Source: Terriglobia bacterium
GTDB lineage: Bacteria; Acidobacteriota; Terriglobia; JAJPHL01; JAPKYU01
Length of the DNA: 64,000 bases
Reading direction: 5' to 3'
Assembly: GCA_965206645.1 (NCBI GenBank)
Contig: CBDBKE010000002.1
Location: 832,218-896,217 of the forward strand
The position numbers and the translations under genes were made by a program. The notes beneath the pieces were generated by a model. The model was not told the origin of the DNA. It made no database searches and worked only from the letters and a program-made list of their open reading frames with translations. This document shows positions 762 through 64,000 of the stretch, one piece after another (the first letter of the stretch is position 1; each line of letters opens with the position of its first letter).

Positions 762-873
762 TGGCCAGGCCGAGATTTTGTACCAAGTGATGTGAGACAT
801 ATTACATTACCATTTGAAGCTCTGGGCTCGGGTTCCAGGGTGGTGTATAGGCCCCCGGCGCCGGGGGCCTATA
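762..873 (-). mobile_element. Right-end remnant of an IS3-family element (variant of the 4559 element)
   Basis: TGGCCAGGCCGAGATTTTGTACCAA resembles the IR TGACCAGACCGATTTTTTGTACCAA. The minus strand reads YRPPAPGAYTPPWNPSPELQMVM*, like the OrfB C-terminus. Confidence 0.75.
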
Positions 874-889
874 GAGTCTGTGTGAAAAC
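874..889. mobile_element. Isolated IS1182-like terminal inverted repeat
   Basis: GAGTCTGTGTGAAAAC matches the ends at 19498-19512 (reverse complement GAGACTGTGTGAAAA) and at 62389 (GAGCCTGTGTGGAAAC). Both of those ends are attached to IS1182 transposase C-termini. Confidence 0.7.
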
Positions 890-954
890 GGTACTGTCAA
901 GTTGAGCAGAATCCTTCCACAAAACGGGCGGATTCTGCTCAACTTGACAGTACC
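890..954. mobile_element. 65-bp MITE, IS6-like ends (copy 1)
   Basis: Perfect 25-bp inverted arms GGTACTGTCAAGTTGAGCAGAATCC around a 15-nt loop. The same termini occur at 2623 and 24352. Confidence 0.75.
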
Positions 955-3749: not shown

Positions 3750-4286
3750 TGACCTGCCCCCGGTTGTTGGTCCACTTTTTATGTTAGTCCATAAGCCGTT
3801 GCAGCCGGGTGGAGCGGAGCGGAACCCGGCGGTAACGGCAAGATCGCTTCCGGGGCTGGCGGCCGGTAGCCCAACGCGCTGTGCGGGCGAACTTTGTTAT
3901 ACTCCCGTCGCCATCCCTCAATCAACACCTTCGCTTCCCGCAAGGTGTGGAAGATCTCTCCATTGAGAAACTCGTCTCGAAACTTCCCGTTCAATGATTC
4001 TACATGCCCGTTTTCCCATGGGCTCCCCGGCTCGATGAACAAAGTTTTTACCTCTACCCGCTCCAGCCAGTTCCGAACCAACCGTGCTGTGAACTCGGAC
4101 CCATTGTCCGAGCGAATGTAATCGGGAACTCCTCGCTCCACAAACAAGGCTGCCAGCCGTTCCAAGACACTCATCGAATCAGCTCGCCGTCCTACGTCGA
4201 TCGCCAAACATTCTCGCGTGTACTCATCCACCACCGTCAACATCTTCAGGGGACGACCGTCCCGGGTTCGATCTGCCACAAAATCG
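3750..4286 (-). mobile_element. IS3-family element, 3' part of orfB plus right IR (truncated by IS5)
   Basis: IR TGACCTGCCCCCGG; DEYTREC, RSDNGSEF, PWENGHVES, RPHSALGYRPP. Confidence 0.9.
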
Positions 4287-4558
4287 GGCGTTGTTGCAGA
4301 AATCTGACTCCATCCCCAACGCTCTCCCTCCTGATAGGCTAGGGGATGGGCAAAAGCGACTACACCTTCCGATATAAGGTTCGCAACTGGCCGGAGTACA
4401 ACCGGGCTCTGGTGAAACGTGGGCAGCTGACACTGTGGTTCGACACGGAGGCAGTCGCTGCCTGGCGTCATCCAGGACCCTTCGAAGGGCGAGGCCGGCC
4501 CAAGGTCTACGCAGATGCGGCGATCCAATGTGCGCTGGTCCTGAATTCGGTGTTTCAC

Positions 4559-5808
4559 TGACCTGACCGGCACTTTTTGTACCAAGTGGAAAGAGAGAGA
4601 ATCCACTTGAGGAGGAAGTGAGGTCATGCCGACAAGGAGTTACAAGCCGGAGCAGATTGTAGCGGTGCTACGGCAGATAGAAGTGCAGATGGGGAACGGG
4701 AAGACTGCGCCCCAAGCCTGCAAAGAAGCTGGAATCCACACCCAAACCTACTACCGGTGGCGGAAGGAATACGGCGGGCTGAAGGTGGTGCAGGCAAAAC
4801 GGCTAAAGGAGTTGGAGAAGGAAAACACGCGGCTGAAGCGGTTGGTAGCGGAGCTTTCTCTGGAGAAGCAGGTGCTGCGGGATGTGGCACAGGGAAACTT
4901 CTGAGCCCTGAGCGGCGGCGTTGTGCGGTGGAGCGTGCGTGGGAGCAACACGGGTTGTCGGAACGGCATGCCTGCCGGCTGCTGGGGCAATGGCGAGGGA
5001 CACAACGATACGAGCCGATTCATCGGGTGGACGAGGATGCTCTGACCCGAGTGATCATTGCCCTGGGAGCGAAGTACGGGCGATATGGCTACCGGAGGAT
5101 CACAGCGTTGCTGCGGAGTGCGGGCTGGGAAGTGGGCAAGGACCGGGTGCAGCGGATTTGGCGGCGGGAAGGGCTGAAAGTGCCGCAAAAACAAAGGCCG
5201 CGAGGACGGCTGTGGCTGAACGACGGTTCCTGTGTACGACTGAGGCCGGAGCGACCGAACCACGTGTGGAGCTACGACTTCATGAGTGCCAGAACGCACG
5301 AGGGGAGAACGCTGCGGCTGCTGACCTTGCTGGATGAGTACACGCGGGAATGCCTGGCGATCCGGGTGGAGCGGAGGATGGGCAGCCAACAAATCATTGA
5401 GGCGTTGTCGGACGTGATGTTGTGGCGAGGGATACCGGAACAGATTCGATCCGACAATGGTCCCGAGTTCATCGCCAAACAACTGCGCCAGTGGTTGGCA
5501 AATCTAGGGACCGGGACACTGTACATCGAACCGGGCAGTCCCTGGGAGAACGGGTACTGCGAGAGTTTCAATGGGAAGCTGCGGGACGAATGCCTGAATG
5601 GAGAGATCTTCTACTCGTTGAAGGAGGCACAGGTGGTGATTGAACAGTGGAGAGTGCAATACAACACGGTGCGGCCGCACTCGGCGCTCGGCTATAGGCC
5701 CCCGGCGCCGGGGGCCTATAGCCCTCCCCTGCCACTGAAACCAGTTTCACAGCCCCAGGCTGCGATGTAAACTCTCACTACGGTTGGTACAAAAAATCGG
5801 TCTGGTCA
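4559..5808 (+). mobile_element. Complete IS3-family element (orfA 4626-4904; orfB to 5770, -1 frameshift)
   Basis: TGACC...GGTCA IRs, 4-bp TSD TCAC, slippery GGGAAAC at 4892-4898, DDE motifs. Confidence 0.95.
5690..5723. repeat. Perfect 34-bp palindrome within IS3 orfB
   Basis: GGCTATAGGCCCCCGGC|GCCGGGGGCCTATAGCC. Also present at 11191-11224, and as a 28-bp core at 846-873. Confidence 0.95.
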
Positions 5809-6121
5809 TCACCTCAACCTACGGACCACTCAAGGGTTCCTTCAATCCATCGTGGCGCTCATGGCTCTCGACCTCCCAGTGCCCAACTACAGCACGGTGA
5901 GCCAAAGGCAAAGCGCCGTCGACGTCCGACTGAGTGTACGGCCCACGGATCGACCACGACATGTCGCCATCGATTCGACGGGCCTGAAGATCTACGGAGC
6001 CGGTGAGTGGCACATCAGAAAACACCGAACCCTCCGCCGTAGGACATGGCGAAAGCTCCACCTAGGCGTCGATGAGACGACGAAAGAGATCGTTGCGATA
6101 GACCTGACTGCGAGCAACGTC

Positions 6122-11105: not shown

Positions 11106-12355
11106 TAACCAGACCGATTTTTTGTACCAACCGTAGTGAGAGTTTACATCGCAGCCTGGGGCTGTGAAACTGGTTTCAGTGGCAGGGGAGGGCTATAGGC
11201 CCCCGGCGCCGGGGGCCTATAGCCGAGCGCCGAGTGCGGCCGCACCGTGTTGTATTGCACCCTCCACTGTTCAATCACCACCTGTGCCTCCTTCAACGAG
11301 TAGAAGATCTCTCCATTCAGGCATTCGTCCCGCAGCTTCCCATTGAAACTCTCGCAGTACCCGTTCTCCCAGGGACTGCCCGGTTCGATGTACAGTGTCC
11401 CGGTCCCTAGATTTGCCAACCACTGGCGCAGTTGTTTGGCGATGAACTCGGGACCATTGTCGGATCGAATCTGTTCCGGTATCCCTCGCCACAACATCAC
11501 GTCCGACAACGCCTCAATGATTTGTTGGCTGCCCATCCTCCGCTCCACCCGGATCGCCAGGCATTCCCGCGTGTACTCATCCAGCAAGGTCAGCAGCCGC
11601 AGCGTTCTCCCCTCGTGCGTTCTGGCACTCATGAAGTCGTAGCTCCACACGTGGTTCGGTCGCTCCGGCCTCAGTCGTACACAGGAACCGTCGTTCAGCC
11701 ACAGCCGTCCTCGCGGCCTTTGTTTTTGCGGCACTTTTAGCCCTTCCCGCCGCCAAATCCGCTGCGCCCGGTCCTTGCCCACTTCCCAGCCCGCACTCCG
11801 CAGCAACGCTGTGATCCTCCGGTAGCCATATCGCCCGTGCTTCGCTCCCAGGGCAATGATCGCTCGGGTCAGAGCATCCTCGTCCACCCGATGAATCGGC
11901 TCGTATCGTTGTGTCCCTCGCCATTGCCCCAGCAGCCGGCAGGCATGCCGTTCCGACAACCCGTGTTGCTCCCACGCACGCTCCACCGCACAACGCCGCC
12001 GCTCAGGGCTCAGAAGTTTCCCTGTGCCACATCCCGCAGCACCTGCTTCTCCAGAGAAAGCTCCGCTACCAACCGCTTCAGCCGCGTGTTTTCCTTCTCC
12101 AACTCCTTTAGCCGTTTTGCCTGCACCACCTTCAGCCCGCCGTATTCCTTCCGCCACCGGTAGTAGGTTTGGGTGTGGATTCCAGCTTCTTTGCAGGCTT
12201 GGGGCGCAGTCTTCCCGTTCCCCATCTGCACTTCTATCTGCCGTAGCACCGCTACAATCTGCTCCGGCTTGTAACTCCTTGTCGGCATGACCTCACTTCC
12301 TCCTCAAGTGGATTCTCTCTCTTTCCACTTGGTACAAAAAGTGCCGGTCAGGTCA
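11106..12355 (-). mobile_element. IS3-family element, second copy of the 4559 element
   Basis: Near-identical 1250 bp. No TSD, and it truncates genes on both sides. Confidence 0.95.
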
Positions 12356-16828: not shown

Positions 16829-17791
16829 TCACCTTCCCGCTCCTTTCGATTTGCCTTTTGCCCGCCGCCGTTTCGGTTTCGCCTTCATCACGGCTGCCAG
16901 CGGCGCTCGCATTTTCTCATAGAGCATGAACAGATGTTCGACGCGTTCCCGCTCGGACGCGAAGCCTTTCGCGCGGTAGAGCCGATCCACGGCACGGTCC
17001 AGGGCTTGGTGCGAGCGGCGCAGGTTGGGCGGCATCAGGTCGGGATCGTAGAGGTCGGCCAGCGTTGCGCCCGGATGGGCGGCGCGGGCGTCAAGCACGG
17101 ATTGCGCGAGCGACTCCAGTTTCGACAGGTCCGAGCTTTCATTCCCGAAGCCGGGCGGCGTCGGAAACGTGTTGTAGACGAGACCACTAGAGTAGCGGTA
17201 ATCGCTTTTCAGGCGCCCTCCGACATGGCGCAGCCAGGCCATGTGCATGGCGGAGGTGAGTAGCGCGAAGAGATGCAATGTCGTGTTTTGAATGATCAAT
17301 AGCTGATTGCTGGGAATAACGGGAGGCTCCAAATATCCGATTGGAACGTATTCCCGTCGTTCGGAACTCACTTCGGGCACGACCAGGAATTCGGCGCTGG
17401 GAACAACGGTTACGTGAAACTCTGTCGGCCGATTCGCAAGCGATCTTGCCAACTTACCCGCGTAATTTGTTCTAAACTCCCTGACGGCCTGGACCCGTTT
17501 CAGCACACTCGGCATGGATCGTAGTAAGGATGGCAGAGCACCTGATGTCAGGAGTATCCATCGCTCCAGGCCGTTGATATGTTCGCGACCGCCGATAAAG
17601 GGCCTGAGCAGGCGGGTAGCCTCCGGCTCCCGTGTCAGGAGTTCCTCTCTTTCCTCCCTGTCCAGGATATAGTGGCCGCCATCGACAGGCTTGGTGCCGA
17701 CACCGATTTTGCGAAGGTTGGATATGGCGTTTCGACGTCTATCAACTACGAGATGAGAATTGCCCAAGTGGCTCGCGTCTACGAGATAGGG
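16829..17791 (-). pseudogene. MmeI-like type IIG/IIL restriction-modification enzyme, C-terminal part, truncated by IS5
   Basis: VSSERREYVPIGY, SAMHMAWLRHVGGRLKSDYRYS..LVYNTFP, TLADLYDPDLMP, LDRAVDRLY. Confidence 0.9.
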
Positions 17792-18853
17792 GGCGTTGTT
17801 GCAGAAATCTGCCTCCATCCCCAACGCTCTCCCCCCTGATAGGCTAGGGGATGGGCAAAAGCGACTACACCTTCCGATATAAGGTTCGCAACTGGCCGGA
17901 GTACAACCGGGCTCTGGTGAAACGTGGGCAGCTGACACTGTGGTTCGACACGGAGGCAGTCGCTGCCTGGCGTCATCCAGGACCCTTCGAAGGGCGAGGC
18001 CGGCCCAAGGTCTACGCAGATGCGGCGATCCAATGTGCGCTGGTCCTGAATTCGGTGTTTCACCTCAACCTACGGACCACTCAAGGGTTCCTTCAATCCA
18101 TCGTGGCGCTCATGGCTCTCGACCTCCCAGTGCCCAACTACAGCACGGTGAGCCGAAGGCAAAGCGCCGTCGACGTCCGACTGAGTGTAGGGCCCACGGA
18201 TCGACCACGACATGTCGTCATCGATTCGACGGGCCTGAAGATCTACGGAGCCGGTGAGTGGCACATCAGAAAACACCGAACCCTCCGCCGTAGGACATGG
18301 CGAAAGCTCCACCTAGGCGTCGATGAGACGACGAAAGAGATCGTTGCGATGGACCTGACTGCGAGCAACGTCCACGACGCCCGAAGGCTCTCTTCGTTGC
18401 TGTCTAAGACTCCTGGTTCGATCGGGCAAGTCTCCGCAGACCGGGCCTACGACACGGGTTCCTGCTACGAGGCCGTACTCCAGCACGACGCTATCGTGAC
18501 GATCTTGCCGCGACGCAATGCACGATGCAGCCGAGACTCTCATCCGCCTCCGTGGCGTGCGATGCGTGATACCCATCTCCGGCGTATTAGGACACAGGGC
18601 CGTTATGAGTGGCGGAAGTCGAGTGGCTGCACTCGCCAGAGCGTGGCGGAGAATGCGGTCTCACGGTACAAGGCGATACTCGGGGTAAGCCTCTCGGCCC
18701 GCACGGTCAAGAACCAAAAAGTCGAAGCCGCGATCAAGTGCGCTGTGCTGAACCGGATGGCGGAGCTTGGAATGCCACGATCGGAGCGCGTGTACTGAGG
18801 CGGATGAGCTTCTCGGCCCGGTTCGCCGCGAGCGCGAATTACGCAACAACGCC
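17792..18853 (+). mobile_element. Complete IS5-family (IS903-like) element, transposase 17851-18798
   Basis: IRs GGCGTTGTTGC / GCAACAACGCC; NWPEYNRALVKRG, IDSTGLK, WRKLHLGVD, ADRAYD. No TSD seen. Confidence 0.95.
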
Positions 18854-18959: not shown

Positions 18960-19512
18960 GGATACTTCAAGGTCGAGGACATCGCCGGGTGCGAGGCCGG
19001 CACGACGTTGATGCACTACGCCAATCGCGGGGCTTGCCGGGGCTGCGCTTTGAAGGTGCAGTGCACGAGTAACAGCTACCGGCGCATTGGACGGTACGCG
19101 GATGAGGCGGTGCTGGACCGCATGGCAGAGCGCCTCGCCGACCGGCCCGGAGTGCTGCACCGCCGCCGGGAGTCCGCCGAGCACCCCTTCGGCTCGATCA
19201 AGCACTGGATGGGCCACGGCGGGTTTCTGATGCGCAGGCTTGAGAACGTTCGGGGTGAGTTCAGCTTGACCGCTCTGGCCTATAACATCCGCCGTGCGAC
19301 AACCTTGGCCGGGATTCCGGAACTGATCGCCGCGGTCCGTCCGTGATCGCCCGCGTGGGGCGTTCAAACCAGCTGGAATCGCCCCCCCAAGGGCCTGTTG
19401 CAACGCATCAGGGCGCATGGCATCAGCGAATCGACGACAACCCACTCACGGCCCAAATCCCAGGCCTCTCACAGCGCAAAATTCGACTCGGTCCTACTTT
19501 TCACACAGTCTC
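18960..19512 (+). mobile_element. IS1182-family 3' fragment
   Basis: CRGCALKVQCT, RRESAEHPFGSIK, EFSLTALAYNIRR; terminal TTTTCACACAGTCTC. Confidence 0.85.
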
Positions 19513-62296: not shown

Positions 62297-62388
62297 TGAC
62301 CAGACCGATTTTTTGTACCAACCGTAGTGAGAGTTTACATCGCAGCCTGGGGCTGTGAAACTGGTTTCAGTGGCAGGGGAGGGCTATA
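62297..62388 (-). mobile_element. Right-end remnant of the 4559-type IS3
   Basis: Matches 11106-11197 (terminal TG here versus TA there) and stops at the palindrome's TATA. Confidence 0.9.
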
Positions 62389-62641
62389 GAGCCTGTGTGG
62401 AAACTCGGTTTAGCTGGCTGGAAATCAAAAGGGATCATGATTCGCTCCAGAATTCTGGTGTTTCGATCTTCGCCGAGTCGCCGGTCCGGGAGTCTGCTGA
62501 ACTAGCCTTCCTGATTTAGCTTCGGTTTGTTGCGCCACAGGCGGGTGAGGTTGAAGGCCGTTGCGGCCAGCGCGAACTCCACCGCGACCTTCTCCAGGCC
62601 CCGCCGCCGGAACTGCCGCATTCCACGCTGTTCTTTCAAAA
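62389..62641 (-). mobile_element. IS1182-family 3' fragment
   Basis: IR GAGCCTGTGTGGAAAC; LKEQRGMRQFRRRGLEKVAVEFALAATAFNLTRL. Confidence 0.8.
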
Positions 62642-63657
62642 GGGGATTATATACGAAAGTGGCGAAACCTCTTGACAGCGACGCCACTTTGCGGTAAGAT
62701 GCAGTCATGGCTAAGGCACCTGGCAAGGCGTACCGGAACGGCATCACCCTTAAGCAGATCATGCGGATGTTTCCCGACGACGAAACGGCCGAGCGGTGGT
62801 TCATCAAGCAGCGGTGGCCGAGCGGCGTATGCTGCCCGATCTGCGGATCGCTCAATGTGCAGTCGGGCTGCAAGCACAAAACCATGCCCTACCGCTGCCG
62901 CGAGAAGGAATGCGCGCGGAAGTTCAGCGTGAAGACTGGCACCGTGATGGAGTGCGCCAAGGTCAGCTACCAGGATTGGCTTCTCGCTGCCTTCCTGCTC
63001 ATGACCAGCCTCAAGAGCGTATCGAGCATGAAGCTCCACCGCGACCTCGGCCTGACACAGAAATCCGCGTGGTTTCTAGCGCAGCGCCTCCGGGCTGCCC
63101 TGTCACAGTACGGGAAGAAGCTATTTGCTGGCCCGGTCGAAGTGGACGAAACCTACTTCGGCGGTCGCCGTCGGAACATGAGCAACACCAAGCGGAAGGA
63201 GCTGGCCGATACCGGCCGCGGTCCTATCGGGAAAACGGCGGTGGTCGGCGTCAAAGACCGTGCAACCAAGCGCGTCGCGGCCACAGTGGTCACGGCCACG
63301 GACGCGGCCACGCTGCAAGGGTTCGTAGGCGAGCATGCCGCGCCGGGTGCGACGGTCTACAGCGACGATGCTGTCGCCTATGACGCGCTGCCCTTCAATC
63401 ACGCCACGGTCAAGCACTCGCTCTCCGAGTACGTCAAAGGCGACATTCACACCAATGGCATAGAATCCCTATGGTCGATGCTTAAACGCGCCCACATGGG
63501 CACGTTCCACAAGATTTCACCCAAGCATCTGGATCGCTACGTCCAAGAGTTCGCCGGTCGCCACAACCTGCGCGAGCAGGACACCATCGACCAGCTTGCC
63601 GCCATGAGAGACGGCATGGAAGGTAAGCGTCTCCGCTACTCAGACCTGGTGGCTTGA
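62642..63657 (+). mobile_element. IS1595-family element left end and transposase (62707-63657)
   Basis: GGGGATTAT end; CPICGS/YRC..C Zn finger, VEVDETYFGG, YSDD, HTNGIESLW, YVQEF. Promoter TTGACA-17-TAAGAT at 62672-62700. Confidence 0.9.
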
Positions 63658-63686
63658 ACGCCGATTCGCTACGGAAGGCGGTCCTT

Positions 63687-64000
63687 TCAACACGCCACGG
63701 CAAGCAGCAAAAAGAATACAAGGCTGCCAACCACAAGGTAAGATATTACCTTCTCGTCCGAAAGACCGGTTTCACTGCTGGTGGAAGTTGCACCCGTGGA
63801 AGTTACATCCGTTGCACTTAATACGATTTGAATGTTCACTCCGAGCGTTGGTTTCTGTGGCGATCCGCCCGTGATATCCAGAATGACGGCGAAGGCTTCC
63901 CCGCCGCTGTTCAAGCAACCTGCTACCTGCTCGGCAATTTCACGGTTTAGGAAACCGATCTGCCCTGCACTATCGTGGTGCACCTCAATCGCGTTTGAAT
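63687..64000 (-). CDS. HIRAN-like domain protein with C-terminal TM segment, 5' partial
   Basis: SNAIEV....GQIGFLNREIAEQVA, ITGG...GVNI; hydrophobic C-terminus. Confidence 0.6.
   Translation of the reverse strand, partial: SNAIEVHHDSAGQIGFLNREIAEQVAGCLNSGGEAFAVILDITGGSPQKPTLGVNIQIVLSATDVTSTGATSTSSETGLSDEKVISYLVVGSLVFFLLLAVAC

What the first reader, a model, noticed from the sequence alone, without database searches (positions are those of the whole stretch)
762..889. IS1182 ends sit at the TATA feet of a palindrome conserved inside IS3 transposase genes (IS-on-IS targeting)
Seen: IS3 orfB carries a perfect palindrome GGCTATAGGCCCCCGGCGCCGGGGGCCTATAGCC (5690-5723, 11191-11224). Two separate IS3 remnants end exactly at one of its TATA tetramers, each followed immediately by an IS1182 IR. 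At 873/874 it is the TATA distal to the IS3 right end (IR GAGTCTGTGTGAAAAC). At 62388/62389 it is the proximal TATA (IR GAGCCTGTGTGGAAAC). The IS3 variants and IS1182 variants differ between the two events, and symmetric positions are used. Inference: these IS1182 elements recognise the hairpin/cruciform and use another IS as a landing site, which also inactivates it.
Basis: partly seen in the sequence, partly recalled or inferred. Interest (0 to 1): 0.75.

Follow-up and report, generated by a model that had tools for sequence, protein, structure and literature searches.

The report
IS1182-type element lands in IS3 palindrome
A small jumping gene of the IS1182 family repeatedly inserts at one exact spot, a TATA flanked by short GC-rich mirror-image arms, near the end of another jumping gene (IS3); the pattern is real and striking, but it fits this family's known habit of landing in palindromes.

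Summary
The sequence observation holds. Both IS3 remnants in the window stop exactly at a TATA of the orfB 3' palindrome and are followed at once by an IS1182-type terminal repeat.

One reading is wrong. The two "IS1182 variants" are the left and right ends of one 1394-bp IS, here called ISx.

- **Genome-wide:** 32 of 36 ISx ends abut TATA, and at least 30 of 36 abut IS3 sequence. 13 of 14 full copies carry TATA on both sides. Both orientations, both TATAs and several IS3 variants are used.
- **Junction reality:** contigs from two other studies bridge 873/874.
- **Mechanism:** In 47 of 62 related elements from other Acidobacteriota genomes, the IS sits at the 4-nt centre of a short palindrome, and 38 of the 62 carry the same 4 nt on both sides. 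ISx's non-IS3 sites look the same. TATA is therefore probably the centre of GGGC(C)-TATA-GCCC, not the foot of the 34-bp hairpin.
- **Known or new:** palindrome and hairpin targeting is already published for the IS1182 family (IS1272/TnSha1). Inactivation of IS3 is not shown.

Verdict: new member of a known kind, moderate interest.

The parts
762..873 (-). Right-end remnant of a diverged IS3-family variant ('v3'). Terminal IR starts at 762. Last orfB codons. TATA 846-849, 20-bp GC core 850-869, TATA 870-873. Cut at the TATA distal to the IS3 end.
   Evidence: Read. Positions 1-84 of this remnant are unique in the genome. A v3-like intact palindrome with matching flanks exists in another genome (L108).
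874..889 (+). First 16 bp (IRL) of the 1394-bp IS1182-family element ISx. The rest is lost.
   Evidence: 16/16 identical to the IRL of the full copies. Contigs from two other studies bridge 873/874.
890..954 (.). Internally deleted copy (65 bp, perfect 25-bp stem) of a ~131-bp MITE-like repeat with ends GGTACTGTCAAGTT..AACTTGACAGTACC. It marks where ISx was truncated.
   Evidence: 37 blastn hits in the genome for the 133-bp copy at 2624-2756. Flanks are unique at each of 12 copies inspected.
4559..5808 (+). Full IS3-family copy A (main variant v1), nested in an IS5-family element. Unoccupied palindrome at 5690-5723, with TATA-1 at 5693-5696 and TATA-2 at 5717-5720.
   Evidence: NCBIfam IS3 236.4 bits against cut-off 160. 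Pfam HTH_Tnp_1, HTH_21, rve, rve_3.
11106..12355 (-). Full IS3 v1 copy B. Unoccupied palindrome at 11191-11224.
62297..62388 (-). Right-end remnant of IS3 v1, cut at the TATA proximal to the IS3 end (TATA-2, 62385-62388).
   Evidence: Same 40-nt flank as six other ISx IRR junctions in the genome.
62389..62641 (-). Right-end 253 bp of ISx (IRR 62389-62404 and the transposase C-terminus). Truncated where an IS1595-type element follows.
   Evidence: blastn 100% to ISx positions 1142-1394. Read.
19008..19512 (+). Remnant of a different IS1182-family element. End GAGACTGTGTGAAAAG at 19497-19512. Its outer flank is GTTCC, with no TATA and no palindrome seen. Only one end is available.

Best explanation
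**What it is.** One active IS1182-family insertion sequence, ISx. It is 1394 bp long, has 16-bp imperfect IRs (GAGTCTGTGTGAAAAC and GAGCCTGTGTGGAAAC) and encodes a 406-aa DDE transposase.

**How it inserts.** It inserts at the centre of short GC-armed palindromes. It makes a 4-bp staggered cut that duplicates the central tetramer, here TATA. Because the IS ends are GAG..CTC and the target is C-TATA-G, a 6-bp CTATAG duplication cannot be excluded.

**Why IS3 is hit.** The IS3 lineage in this genome encodes G-Y-R-P-P-A-P-G-A-Y-S with codons that create two sites of the type GGG(C/T)(C)-TATA-G(G)CCC. About 50 uninterrupted IS3 copies carry them. These are almost the only good matches in the genome, so ISx is found almost only inside IS3.

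**Shown.**
- The site, the duplication, both orientations, recurrence, and the clade-wide rule of insertion at a palindrome centre.

**Inferred.**
- That the recognised unit is the small palindrome centred on TATA rather than the 34-bp one.
- That recognition rests on two-fold symmetry or structure rather than on a fixed sequence. The arms differ between relatives but always stay complementary.
- That the IS3 bias is a by-product of site supply, plus tolerance of insertions there, rather than an evolved anti-IS3 function.
For: **Identity.** NCBIfam IS1182 at 321.3 bits against cut-off 270. Pfam DUF772, DDE_Tnp_1_6 and DDE_Tnp_1. 14 full-length copies, 7 of them 100% identical.

**Site.**
- 13 of 14 full copies have TATA on both sides; 1 of 14 has TATA/TTTA.
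- 32 of 36 real ISx ends abut TATA, against 2736 TATAs in 4.41 Mb.

**IS3 bias.** 28 of 36 ends were auto-classed as IS3. Two more are IS3 by eye and by the hit table, giving 30 of 36.

**Independence.**
- Both orientations occur at TATA-2 of v1.
- TATA-1 and TATA-2 are both used in v2; TATA-1 is used in v3.
- Six composites carry different IS3 SNP haplotypes that are shared with uninterrupted copies.
- In a second genome (G001), elements whose transposases are 88% and 99% identical to that of ISx sit at TATA-2 of v1-like and v2-like IS3.

**Small-palindrome reading.**
- The one clear non-IS3 site in G000 reconstructs to GGGGC-TATA-GCCCG with no large perfect palindrome beside it.
- The three non-IS3 sites in G001 are GGGGC-ATCA-GCCCC, GGCC-TTCA/CGAA-GGCC and GGC-TTTAA-GCC.
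- Among 62 related loci with both ends found, out of 80 fetched, 47 have perfectly complementary arms of at least 4 bp abutting the 4-nt centre. With partners shuffled the mean is 14.8 and the maximum 22 in 1000 shuffles. The 47 use 8 different innermost arm 4-mers. 38 of 62 have equal 4-nt duplications.

**Which TATA is used follows arm quality.**
- v1 TATA-1 has the poor left arm CGGC and carries none of the roughly 20 intact v1 junctions.
- v1 TATA-2 (GGGGGCC/GCCCTCCCC) carries all of them.
- v2 has GGGT/GGCCC and GGGCC/ACCC, and both are used.
- v3 TATA-1 is inferred as GGGG/GGCCC from L108 and is used. Its TATA-2 right arm is CACC.

**Control from the window.** Another IS3-family remnant at about 3779-4300 encodes the same GYRPPAPE motif with other codons. 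It has no TATA, no palindrome and no ISx.
Against: 1. By a strict count the IS3 site is a poor palindrome. Only 1 complementary pair abuts TATA before a 1-nt bulge is needed (L004).
2. G000 has 202 free GGGC-N4-GCCC sites and 13 free GGGCTNNAGCCC sites that ISx has not used. About 11 ISx copies touch v1 IS3 against 48 uninterrupted v1 copies. In G001, 2 of only 3 IS3 palindromes are occupied. The IS3 context therefore offers more than 4-bp arms. This could be the TATA centre or the adjacent 20-bp GC palindrome; I cannot separate the two.
3. The published relatives IS1272/TnSha1 join at the base or in the stem of hairpins.
4. One copy (C2 9726-11119) has TATA-1 on one side and TATA-2 on the other, with the core missing. 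This could be a stem-loop replacement.
5. Copies in the same orientation could have spread by gene conversion between IS3 copies or by movement of the composite. The firm minimum number of independent hits is therefore smaller than the number of copies.
6. No experiment was done.
Confidence: 0.65

Rival explanations
1. The transposase recognises the extruded 34-bp hairpin or cruciform and joins at the AT-rich TATA at its base. The short outer arms are irrelevant.
For: - The palindrome is a strong predicted DNA hairpin, -17.6 to -26.2 kcal/mol in reconstructed empty sites.
- Both feet are used across IS3 variants.
- IS1272/TnSha1 of the same family insert at the base or in the stem of hairpins with little sequence conservation.
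- IS3 palindromes are far more occupied than generic GGGC-N4-GCCC sites.
- One copy lacks the core between its two TATAs.
Against: - ISx also sits in GGGGC-TATA-GCCCG with no large perfect palindrome beside it, and close variants sit in short palindromes with non-TATA centres.
- 47 of 62 relatives sit at the centre of a palindrome, not at its foot.
- In v1 all intact junctions are at one foot only.
- The TATA that is used tracks the quality of the outer arm in v1, v2 and v3.
Confidence: 0.2
2. There is no real target choice. ISx inserts widely, and only insertions in neutral DNA such as other ISs survive. Alternatively, one ancestral IS3::ISx allele spread by IS3 transposition or gene conversion.
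For: - The genome is IS-rich: 48 uninterrupted copies of one IS3 and many nested elements.
- Seven ISx copies are identical.
- SNPs near the insertion are uninformative, so conversion cannot be excluded for copies in the same orientation.
Against: - Selection cannot produce the same nucleotide position, a TATA duplication and palindromic arms at 32 of 36 ends out of 2736 genomic TATAs.
- Both orientations, two TATAs, at least three IS3 variants, non-IS3 sites with the same motif, and an element with an 88%-identical transposase at the same site in another genome all require separate insertions.
- The four same-orientation composites carry four different IS3 haplotypes.
Confidence: 0.07
3. Assembly artefact. 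The junctions are chimeric joins of repeats in a metagenome-derived assembly.
For: The genome is in 4 contigs and full of near-identical repeats. Several odd ISx fragments lie inside IS3 copies.
Against: - Short contigs from two other studies bridge 873/874: X15 record 10 and X16 record 19.
- The same junction type occurs at dozens of ends, with both flanks consistent.
- It also occurs in an independently assembled genome.
Confidence: 0.02

Closest known systems
IS1272 and TnSha1 (IS1182 family, staphylococci)
   Same: Same transposase family. Targets are inverted repeats or hairpins with little primary-sequence conservation. The same hairpin is hit repeatedly and in both orientations (Furi 2016, PMC4923244, passages; Wan 2017, PMC5678879, sections 22 and 29). 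Both papers cite Siguier 2015 for 'some IS1182 members target palindromic sequences'; I did not see Siguier 2015 itself.
   Different: IS1272/TnSha1 delete part or all of the stem-loop and leave no duplication. ISx keeps the target and duplicates its 4-nt centre (13 of 14 copies). This is the 'loop-only duplication' path drawn as a possibility in Wan 2017 Fig 13. The main ISx target lies in the coding 3' end of another IS, not in a terminator.
REP-targeting insertion sequences (IS1397, ISKpn1, ISPsy8 of IS3; IS621, ISPpu9/10 of IS110; members of IS4, IS256, IS5)
   Same: IS elements that choose repeated palindromic sequences. The relatives of ISx sit in recurrent hairpin repeats such as CCCAGCGC-TCAC-GCGCTGGGCTAA. 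Tobes & Pareja 2006 (PMC1525189, passages) list five IS families that do this and note palindromic insertion sites with GC pairs at the ends of the duplication.
   Different: In this genome the repeat that serves as target is itself a mobile element's gene, not an extragenic REP. IS1182 is not named in the passages I saw.
IS4321/IS5075 (IS110/IS1111 group), which insert into the terminal repeats of Tn21-type transposons
   Same: A precedent for one mobile element using a conserved sequence of another as its specific landing site. This is recalled; I saw only a search listing in which 39 papers hold these terms together.
   Different: Different enzyme class (DEDD recombinase, RNA-guided in IS110). 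The target is a transposon end, not a coding palindrome. No TATA duplication.

Membership tests
IS1182 family | Transposase matches the curated family model above its cut-off | tested here: met
   NF033551 at 321.3 bits against cut-off 270, E 1.2e-95. IS5 models are far below their cut-offs.
IS1182 family | Domain make-up: N-terminal DUF772 plus C-terminal DDE_Tnp_1/DDE_Tnp_1_6 | tested here: met
   PF05598 at residues 51-120, PF01609 at 231-393, PF13751 at 330-397.
IS1182 family | Single ORF between terminal inverted repeats; length in the family's range (about 1.3-1.95 kb, recalled from ISfinder) | tested here: met
   1394 bp, one 406-aa ORF, and 16-bp IRs matching at 14 of 16 positions.
IS1182 family, palindrome-targeting members | Insertion into inverted-repeat or palindromic targets | tested here: met
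   47 of 62 relatives have complementary arms of at least 4 bp. ISx sites are GGG(C/T)(C)-TATA-G(G)CCC.
IS1272-type 'stem-loop replacing' transposition | Target stem-loop deleted, no target duplication | tested here: not met
   13 of 14 full copies keep TATA on both sides, with the palindrome intact on one side. One copy (C2 9726) lacks the core and could be such an event or a recombinant.
IS3 family (the target element) | orfA (HTH) and orfB (rve DDE) match the family model; TG..CA ends | tested here: met
   NF033516 at 236.4 bits against cut-off 160. HTH_Tnp_1, HTH_21, rve, rve_3. Ends TGACC..GGTCA.
REP-targeting IS (functional class) | Target is a repeated extragenic palindrome | tested here: inconclusive
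   Relatives sit in recurring hairpin repeats, but I did not count these repeats in their genomes. In this genome the target is intragenic, in IS3 orfB.

The most novel reading that the evidence does not exclude
This IS1182 lineage is a structure-reading 'hyperparasite' of IS3. The 34-bp cruciform-prone palindrome conserved in this IS3 lineage, which is also present unoccupied in IS3 relatives of two other Acidobacteriota genomes, would actively attract the transposase. That would give ISx a safe, self-multiplying landing pad.

Because only the last 16 OrfB residues are lost and both IS3 ends remain, the 2.6-kb composite could still ride on IS3 transposition.

More broadly, a whole Acidobacteriota clade of DDE transposases would recognise DNA hairpins by shape. 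The support is that the target arms covary in 47 of 62 loci with 8 different arm sequences, and that the elements insert precisely in a 4-nt loop.
Probability: 0.2. Interest if true: 0.6.

Novelty: new member of a known kind. Interest (0 to 1): 0.4.

Why it matters
The case gives a clean, many-fold natural data set on how a DDE transposase of the little-studied IS1182 family picks its target. The pattern is insertion at the centre of a short palindrome with a 4-bp duplication. This complements the published IS1272 cases, where the hairpin is deleted.

It also shows that one IS can become the main landing site of another simply because its coding sequence happens to carry the preferred motif in about 50 copies. 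This shapes how IS-rich genomes decay and rearrange. Recombinant flanks and scars are visible here.

For annotation there is a practical point. The palindromic target arms look like extensions of the IS's own inverted repeats and could mislead the calling of IS ends.

Tried and rejected
- **Two IS1182 variants.** Rejected. They are IRL and IRR of one element.
- **Empty-site test for hairpin versus short motif.** I counted free sites in G000. There is no free GGGCTATAGCCC. Of 171 CTATAG sites outside the palindrome, only 9 have arms of at least 3 bp. 202 GGGC-N4-GCCC sites are free. This neither proves nor excludes a role for the big palindrome.
- **A natural IS3 allele without the 20-bp core.** I looked for one to explain copy C2 9726. 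None was found in G000: the 5 matches to GG[CT]TATA[AG]CC all have unrelated flanks.
- **IS3 target duplications.** I tried reading them for composites and intact copies to test whether the composite moves. The flanks printed show no consistent duplication. I dropped this line.
- **Phylum-wide search for the palindrome core.** 19 of 401 genomes matched, including G000 with 80 matches per strand. Of the other 18 genomes, the one match per genome that I inspected had the IS3 TATA-core-TATA context in only 2 (L107, L108). The rest look like chance GC-rich palindromes.
- **Habitat.** Some low-share rows carry environmental labels. I did not lay them, so I draw no conclusion about habitat.
- **Read laying on 400-1400.** No single contig spans the whole stretch. 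X1's contig stops at 874 and X2's bridging piece has only 16 nt on the left side. I counted neither as support.
- **Literature.** Searches found no paper describing an IS1182-family element targeted to an IS3 gene. That is no proof that none exists. Siguier 2015 and ISfinder/TnPedia were not available to me, and supplements were not opened.

Full report
**1. The observation**

The 34-nt palindrome is present exactly at 5690-5723 and 11191-11224. No match appeared in any of 100 shuffles. Both copies lie at the 3' end of orfB in two full IS3-family elements, 4559-5808 (+) and 11106-12355 (-). The IS3 assignment rests on NCBIfam IS3 at 236.4 bits against cut-off 160, and on Pfam HTH_Tnp_1, HTH_21, rve and rve_3. 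The palindrome encodes G-Y-R-P-P-A-P-G-A-Y-S.

At 762-873 lies the right end of a diverged IS3 variant (v3), in reverse orientation. Its first 84 nt are unique in the genome. It has TATA at 846-849, a 20-bp GC core at 850-869 and TATA at 870-873. GAGTCTGTGTGAAAAC follows directly at 874-889.

At 62297-62388 lies the right end of the main variant (v1). It stops at the proximal TATA, and GAGCCTGTGTGGAAAC follows directly.

**2. What the IS1182 sequences are**

A genome-wide search shows that the two IRs are the two ends of one 1394-bp element, ISx. IRL continues ..AAAACCGCTCTTGCG and IRR continues ..GAAACTCGGTTTAGC. ISx has one 406-aa ORF. It scores 321.3 bits on NCBIfam IS1182 (cut-off 270) and carries DUF772 plus DDE_Tnp_1_6.

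blastn gives 29 rows. 14 are full-length copies, 7 of them 100% identical. The rest are truncated copies and short fragments.

In the window only 16 bp of IRL remain at 874-889. They are followed by a 65-bp internally deleted copy of a ~131-bp MITE-like repeat. At the other junction, 253 bp of the IRR side remain at 62389-62641, up to an IS1595-type element.

**3. Where ISx sits in its own genome**

- 13 of 14 full copies have TATA on both sides, and one has TATA/TTTA.
- A search for both IRs with up to 2 mismatches gave 39 matches. Two are spurious and one belongs to a different IS1182-type remnant (window 19497-19512). Of the remaining 36, 32 abut TATA, 2 abut GTTA, 1 CCTA and 1 TAAA.
- 28 of 36 were classed automatically as abutting the palindrome core or the IS3 3' tail. 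Two more are IS3 by eye (C1 312059) or by the IS3 blastn hit table (C2 11119), giving at least 30 of 36.
- For scale, the genome has 2736 TATAs, 310 CTATAGs and 48 uninterrupted v1 IS3 copies.
- About 11 ISx copies touch v1 sequence.

**4. Independence of the events**

- At TATA-2 of v1, ISx occurs in both orientations.
- In variant v2 both TATAs are used. In v3 (the window) TATA-1 is used.
- Six v1 composites carry different IS3 SNP haplotypes, each shared with uninterrupted copies or unique. Gene conversion between IS3 copies could still mimic this for copies in the same orientation. The firm minimum is set by the distinct combinations of variant, TATA and orientation, plus the non-IS3 sites.
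- Some flanks are recombinant: both flanks are IS3 5' parts at C4 48461, and both are 3' tails at C4 1098004.

**5. Are the junctions real?**

Contigs from runs X15 (record 10, 796-982) and X16 (record 19, 792-934), from different studies, bridge 873/874 with more than 31 nt on each side.

**6. Relatives elsewhere**

A scan of species-representative genomes returned 80 loci. All come from MAGs titled as Acidobacteriota groups, with transposases 45-99% identical. Using the conserved terminal motif, I found both ends in 62 of the 80.

- 38 of 62 have the same 4 nt on both sides.
- 47 of 62 have perfectly complementary arms of at least 4 bp directly abutting that 4-nt centre: 18 with 4 bp, 5 with 5, 3 with 6, 1 with 7 and 20 with 8.
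- With right flanks shuffled among loci the mean is 14.8 and the maximum 22 in 1000 shuffles.
- The 47 use eight different innermost arm 4-mers: GGGC 23, GCGC 10, GGAC 4, GCCC 4, GGCC 2, GGCT 2, GTGC 1 and GGGA 1.

The rule in this clade is therefore insertion at the centre of a short palindrome. The arms vary in sequence but stay complementary. In 38 of the 62 the 4-nt centre is the same on both sides, as a simple duplication would give. Because these arms are palindromic, they look like extensions of the IS's own IRs.

**7. A second genome**

G001 (3.6 Mb) holds five ISx-like copies and only three palindrome cores. Two of the three cores are abutted by an ISx-type end. One is a v1-like IS3 and the other a v2-like IS3, both at TATA-2, and their transposases are 88% and 99% identical to that of ISx. 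The other three copies sit in GGGGC-ATCA-GCCCC, GGCC-TTCA/CGAA-GGCC and GGC-TTTAA-GCC, none next to a large hairpin.

**8. Foot of the big hairpin, or centre of a small palindrome?**

For the small palindrome:
- The clade-wide rule in paragraph 6.
- The non-IS3 sites of ISx (GGGGC-TATA-GCCCG in G000) and of its close variants in G001.
- The choice of TATA follows the outer arm.
  - v1 TATA-1 is ctcGGC-TATA-GGCCCC, with a poor left arm. It has no intact junction. One scar lies there, at C2 446642.
  - v1 TATA-2 is GGGGGCC-TATA-GCCCTCCCC and carries all of the roughly 20 v1 junctions.
  - v2 has GGGT-TATA-GGCCC and GGGCC-TATA-ACCC, and both are used.
  - v3's used TATA-1 is inferred as GGGG-TATA-GGCCC from the relative L108. 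Its unused TATA-2 has the right arm CACC.
- Another IS3-family remnant at about 3779-4300 encodes GYRPPAPE with other codons. It has no TATA, no palindrome and no ISx.

For a role of the big palindrome:
- The IS3 site needs a 1-nt bulge to pair. The strict arm length is 1 (L004).
- 202 free GGGC-N4-GCCC sites and 13 free GGGCTNNAGCCC sites are unused, while IS3 sites are heavily used in two genomes.
- IS1272/TnSha1 join at the base or in the stem of hairpins.
- Copy C2 9726 has TATA-1 on one side and TATA-2 on the other, with no core between them.

My estimates are 0.65 for the small palindrome alone and 0.2 for the hairpin-foot reading. A mixed reading, in which the small site is recognised and the big palindrome helps, lies between the two.

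**9. Does it inactivate IS3?**

This is not shown. Insertion at TATA-2 (5717-5720) leaves OrfB residues 1-321 of 337. The Pfam rve_3 match ends at residue 316. Both IS3 ends remain, 1.4 kb further apart. Insertion at TATA-1 leaves residues 1-313.

**10. What is known**

- Furi 2016 (PMC4923244, passages) and Wan 2017 (PMC5678879, sections 22 and 29) show that IS1272/TnSha1 of the IS1182 family target hairpins of varied sequence. The same hairpin is hit repeatedly and in both orientations, the stem-loop is deleted, and no duplication is left.
- Both papers cite Siguier 2015 for palindrome targeting by some family members.
- Wan's Fig 13 draws a 'loop-only duplication' path as a possibility. ISx and its clade look like natural examples of that path.
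- REP-targeting ISs are known in five families (Tobes & Pareja 2006, passages).
- My searches found no report of an IS1182-type element aimed at an IS3 gene. ISfinder and TnPedia were not available to me.

**11. Verdict**

The pattern is real and far beyond chance. Its kind is known: an IS1182-family element that chooses palindromes. Two things are new. First, the target is the coding 3' palindrome of a highly amplified IS3. Second, a whole Acidobacteriota clade inserts at the palindrome centre, mostly with a 4-nt duplication. I rate it a new member of a known kind, with interest 0.4.

Noticed in passing
Genome contigs: C4 1604479-1604540; C4 649186-649230; C2 446642-446931; C1 364305-364370; C3 424183-424211: Short internal pieces of ISx (29-298 bp, without ISx ends) lie inside otherwise near-intact IS3 copies. 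Three are at or next to the palindrome TATAs, and two are elsewhere in IS3 (positions about 1013 and 1190). They look like scars of imprecise excision or deletion, or like templated filler DNA. One (C4 649xxx) also duplicates about 40 bp of IS3.
   Followed up: partly
Genome C2 9726-11119: A full ISx copy whose left flank ends at TATA-1 (..GGGTTATA) and whose right flank starts at TATA-2 (TATAACCC..) of a v2-type IS3. The 20-bp core and one TATA are missing. It is either a recombinant of two insertions or an IS1272-like 'stem-loop replacement'.
   Followed up: partly
window 890-954 and 2624-2756: A ~131-bp MITE-like repeat with ends GGTACTGTCAAGTT..AACTTGACAGTACC gave 37 blastn hits in the genome, with unique flanks at the 12 copies inspected. 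A 65-bp deleted copy and a full copy bracket a SelO-like gene (1152-2612; my reading of its sequence, no family search run). I found no transposase partner.
   Followed up: partly
window about 4300-4558 plus 5809-6120; intact copy about 17790-18850: IS3 copy A is nested in an IS5-type element (named from my reading of its translation; no family search run). An uninterrupted copy of that element lies at about 17.8-18.85 kb, and the comparison gives the empty site TTTCACCTC.
   Followed up: partly
window 3779-4300 (-): Remnant of another IS3-family transposase that encodes the same ..LGYRPPAPE.. motif with different codons (TAC CGG CCG CCA GCC CCG GAA). It has no TATA and no palindrome, so the palindrome is a nucleotide-level trait of one IS3 lineage.
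   Followed up: partly
window 62650-63700: An IS1595-type element (my reading of the translation; no family search run), with a transposase ORF at 62707-63657, truncates the ISx remnant. The contig ends at the window's end.
   Followed up: no
L107 (G241) and L108 (G251): Unoccupied TATA-core-TATA palindromes with IS3-tail-like flanks occur in two other Acidobacteriota genomes of different families. The palindrome is therefore conserved in this IS3 lineage beyond one genome. Its function for IS3, if any, is unknown.
   Followed up: partly
Related loci, e.g. L014, L015, L047, L060: In 24 of 62 relatives the two 4-nt 'duplications' differ, for example TTCA on the left and TAAA on the right, although the arms still pair. 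The cause could be flank exchange by recombination between copies, or a centre that is not simply duplicated.
   Followed up: no
Genome C1 about 264-275 kb and C4 about 3.7-14 kb: These two regions share the same series of ISx and IS3 junctions with identical flanks. This is a large duplication or an unresolved repeat between contigs, and it inflates the copy counts slightly.
   Followed up: no
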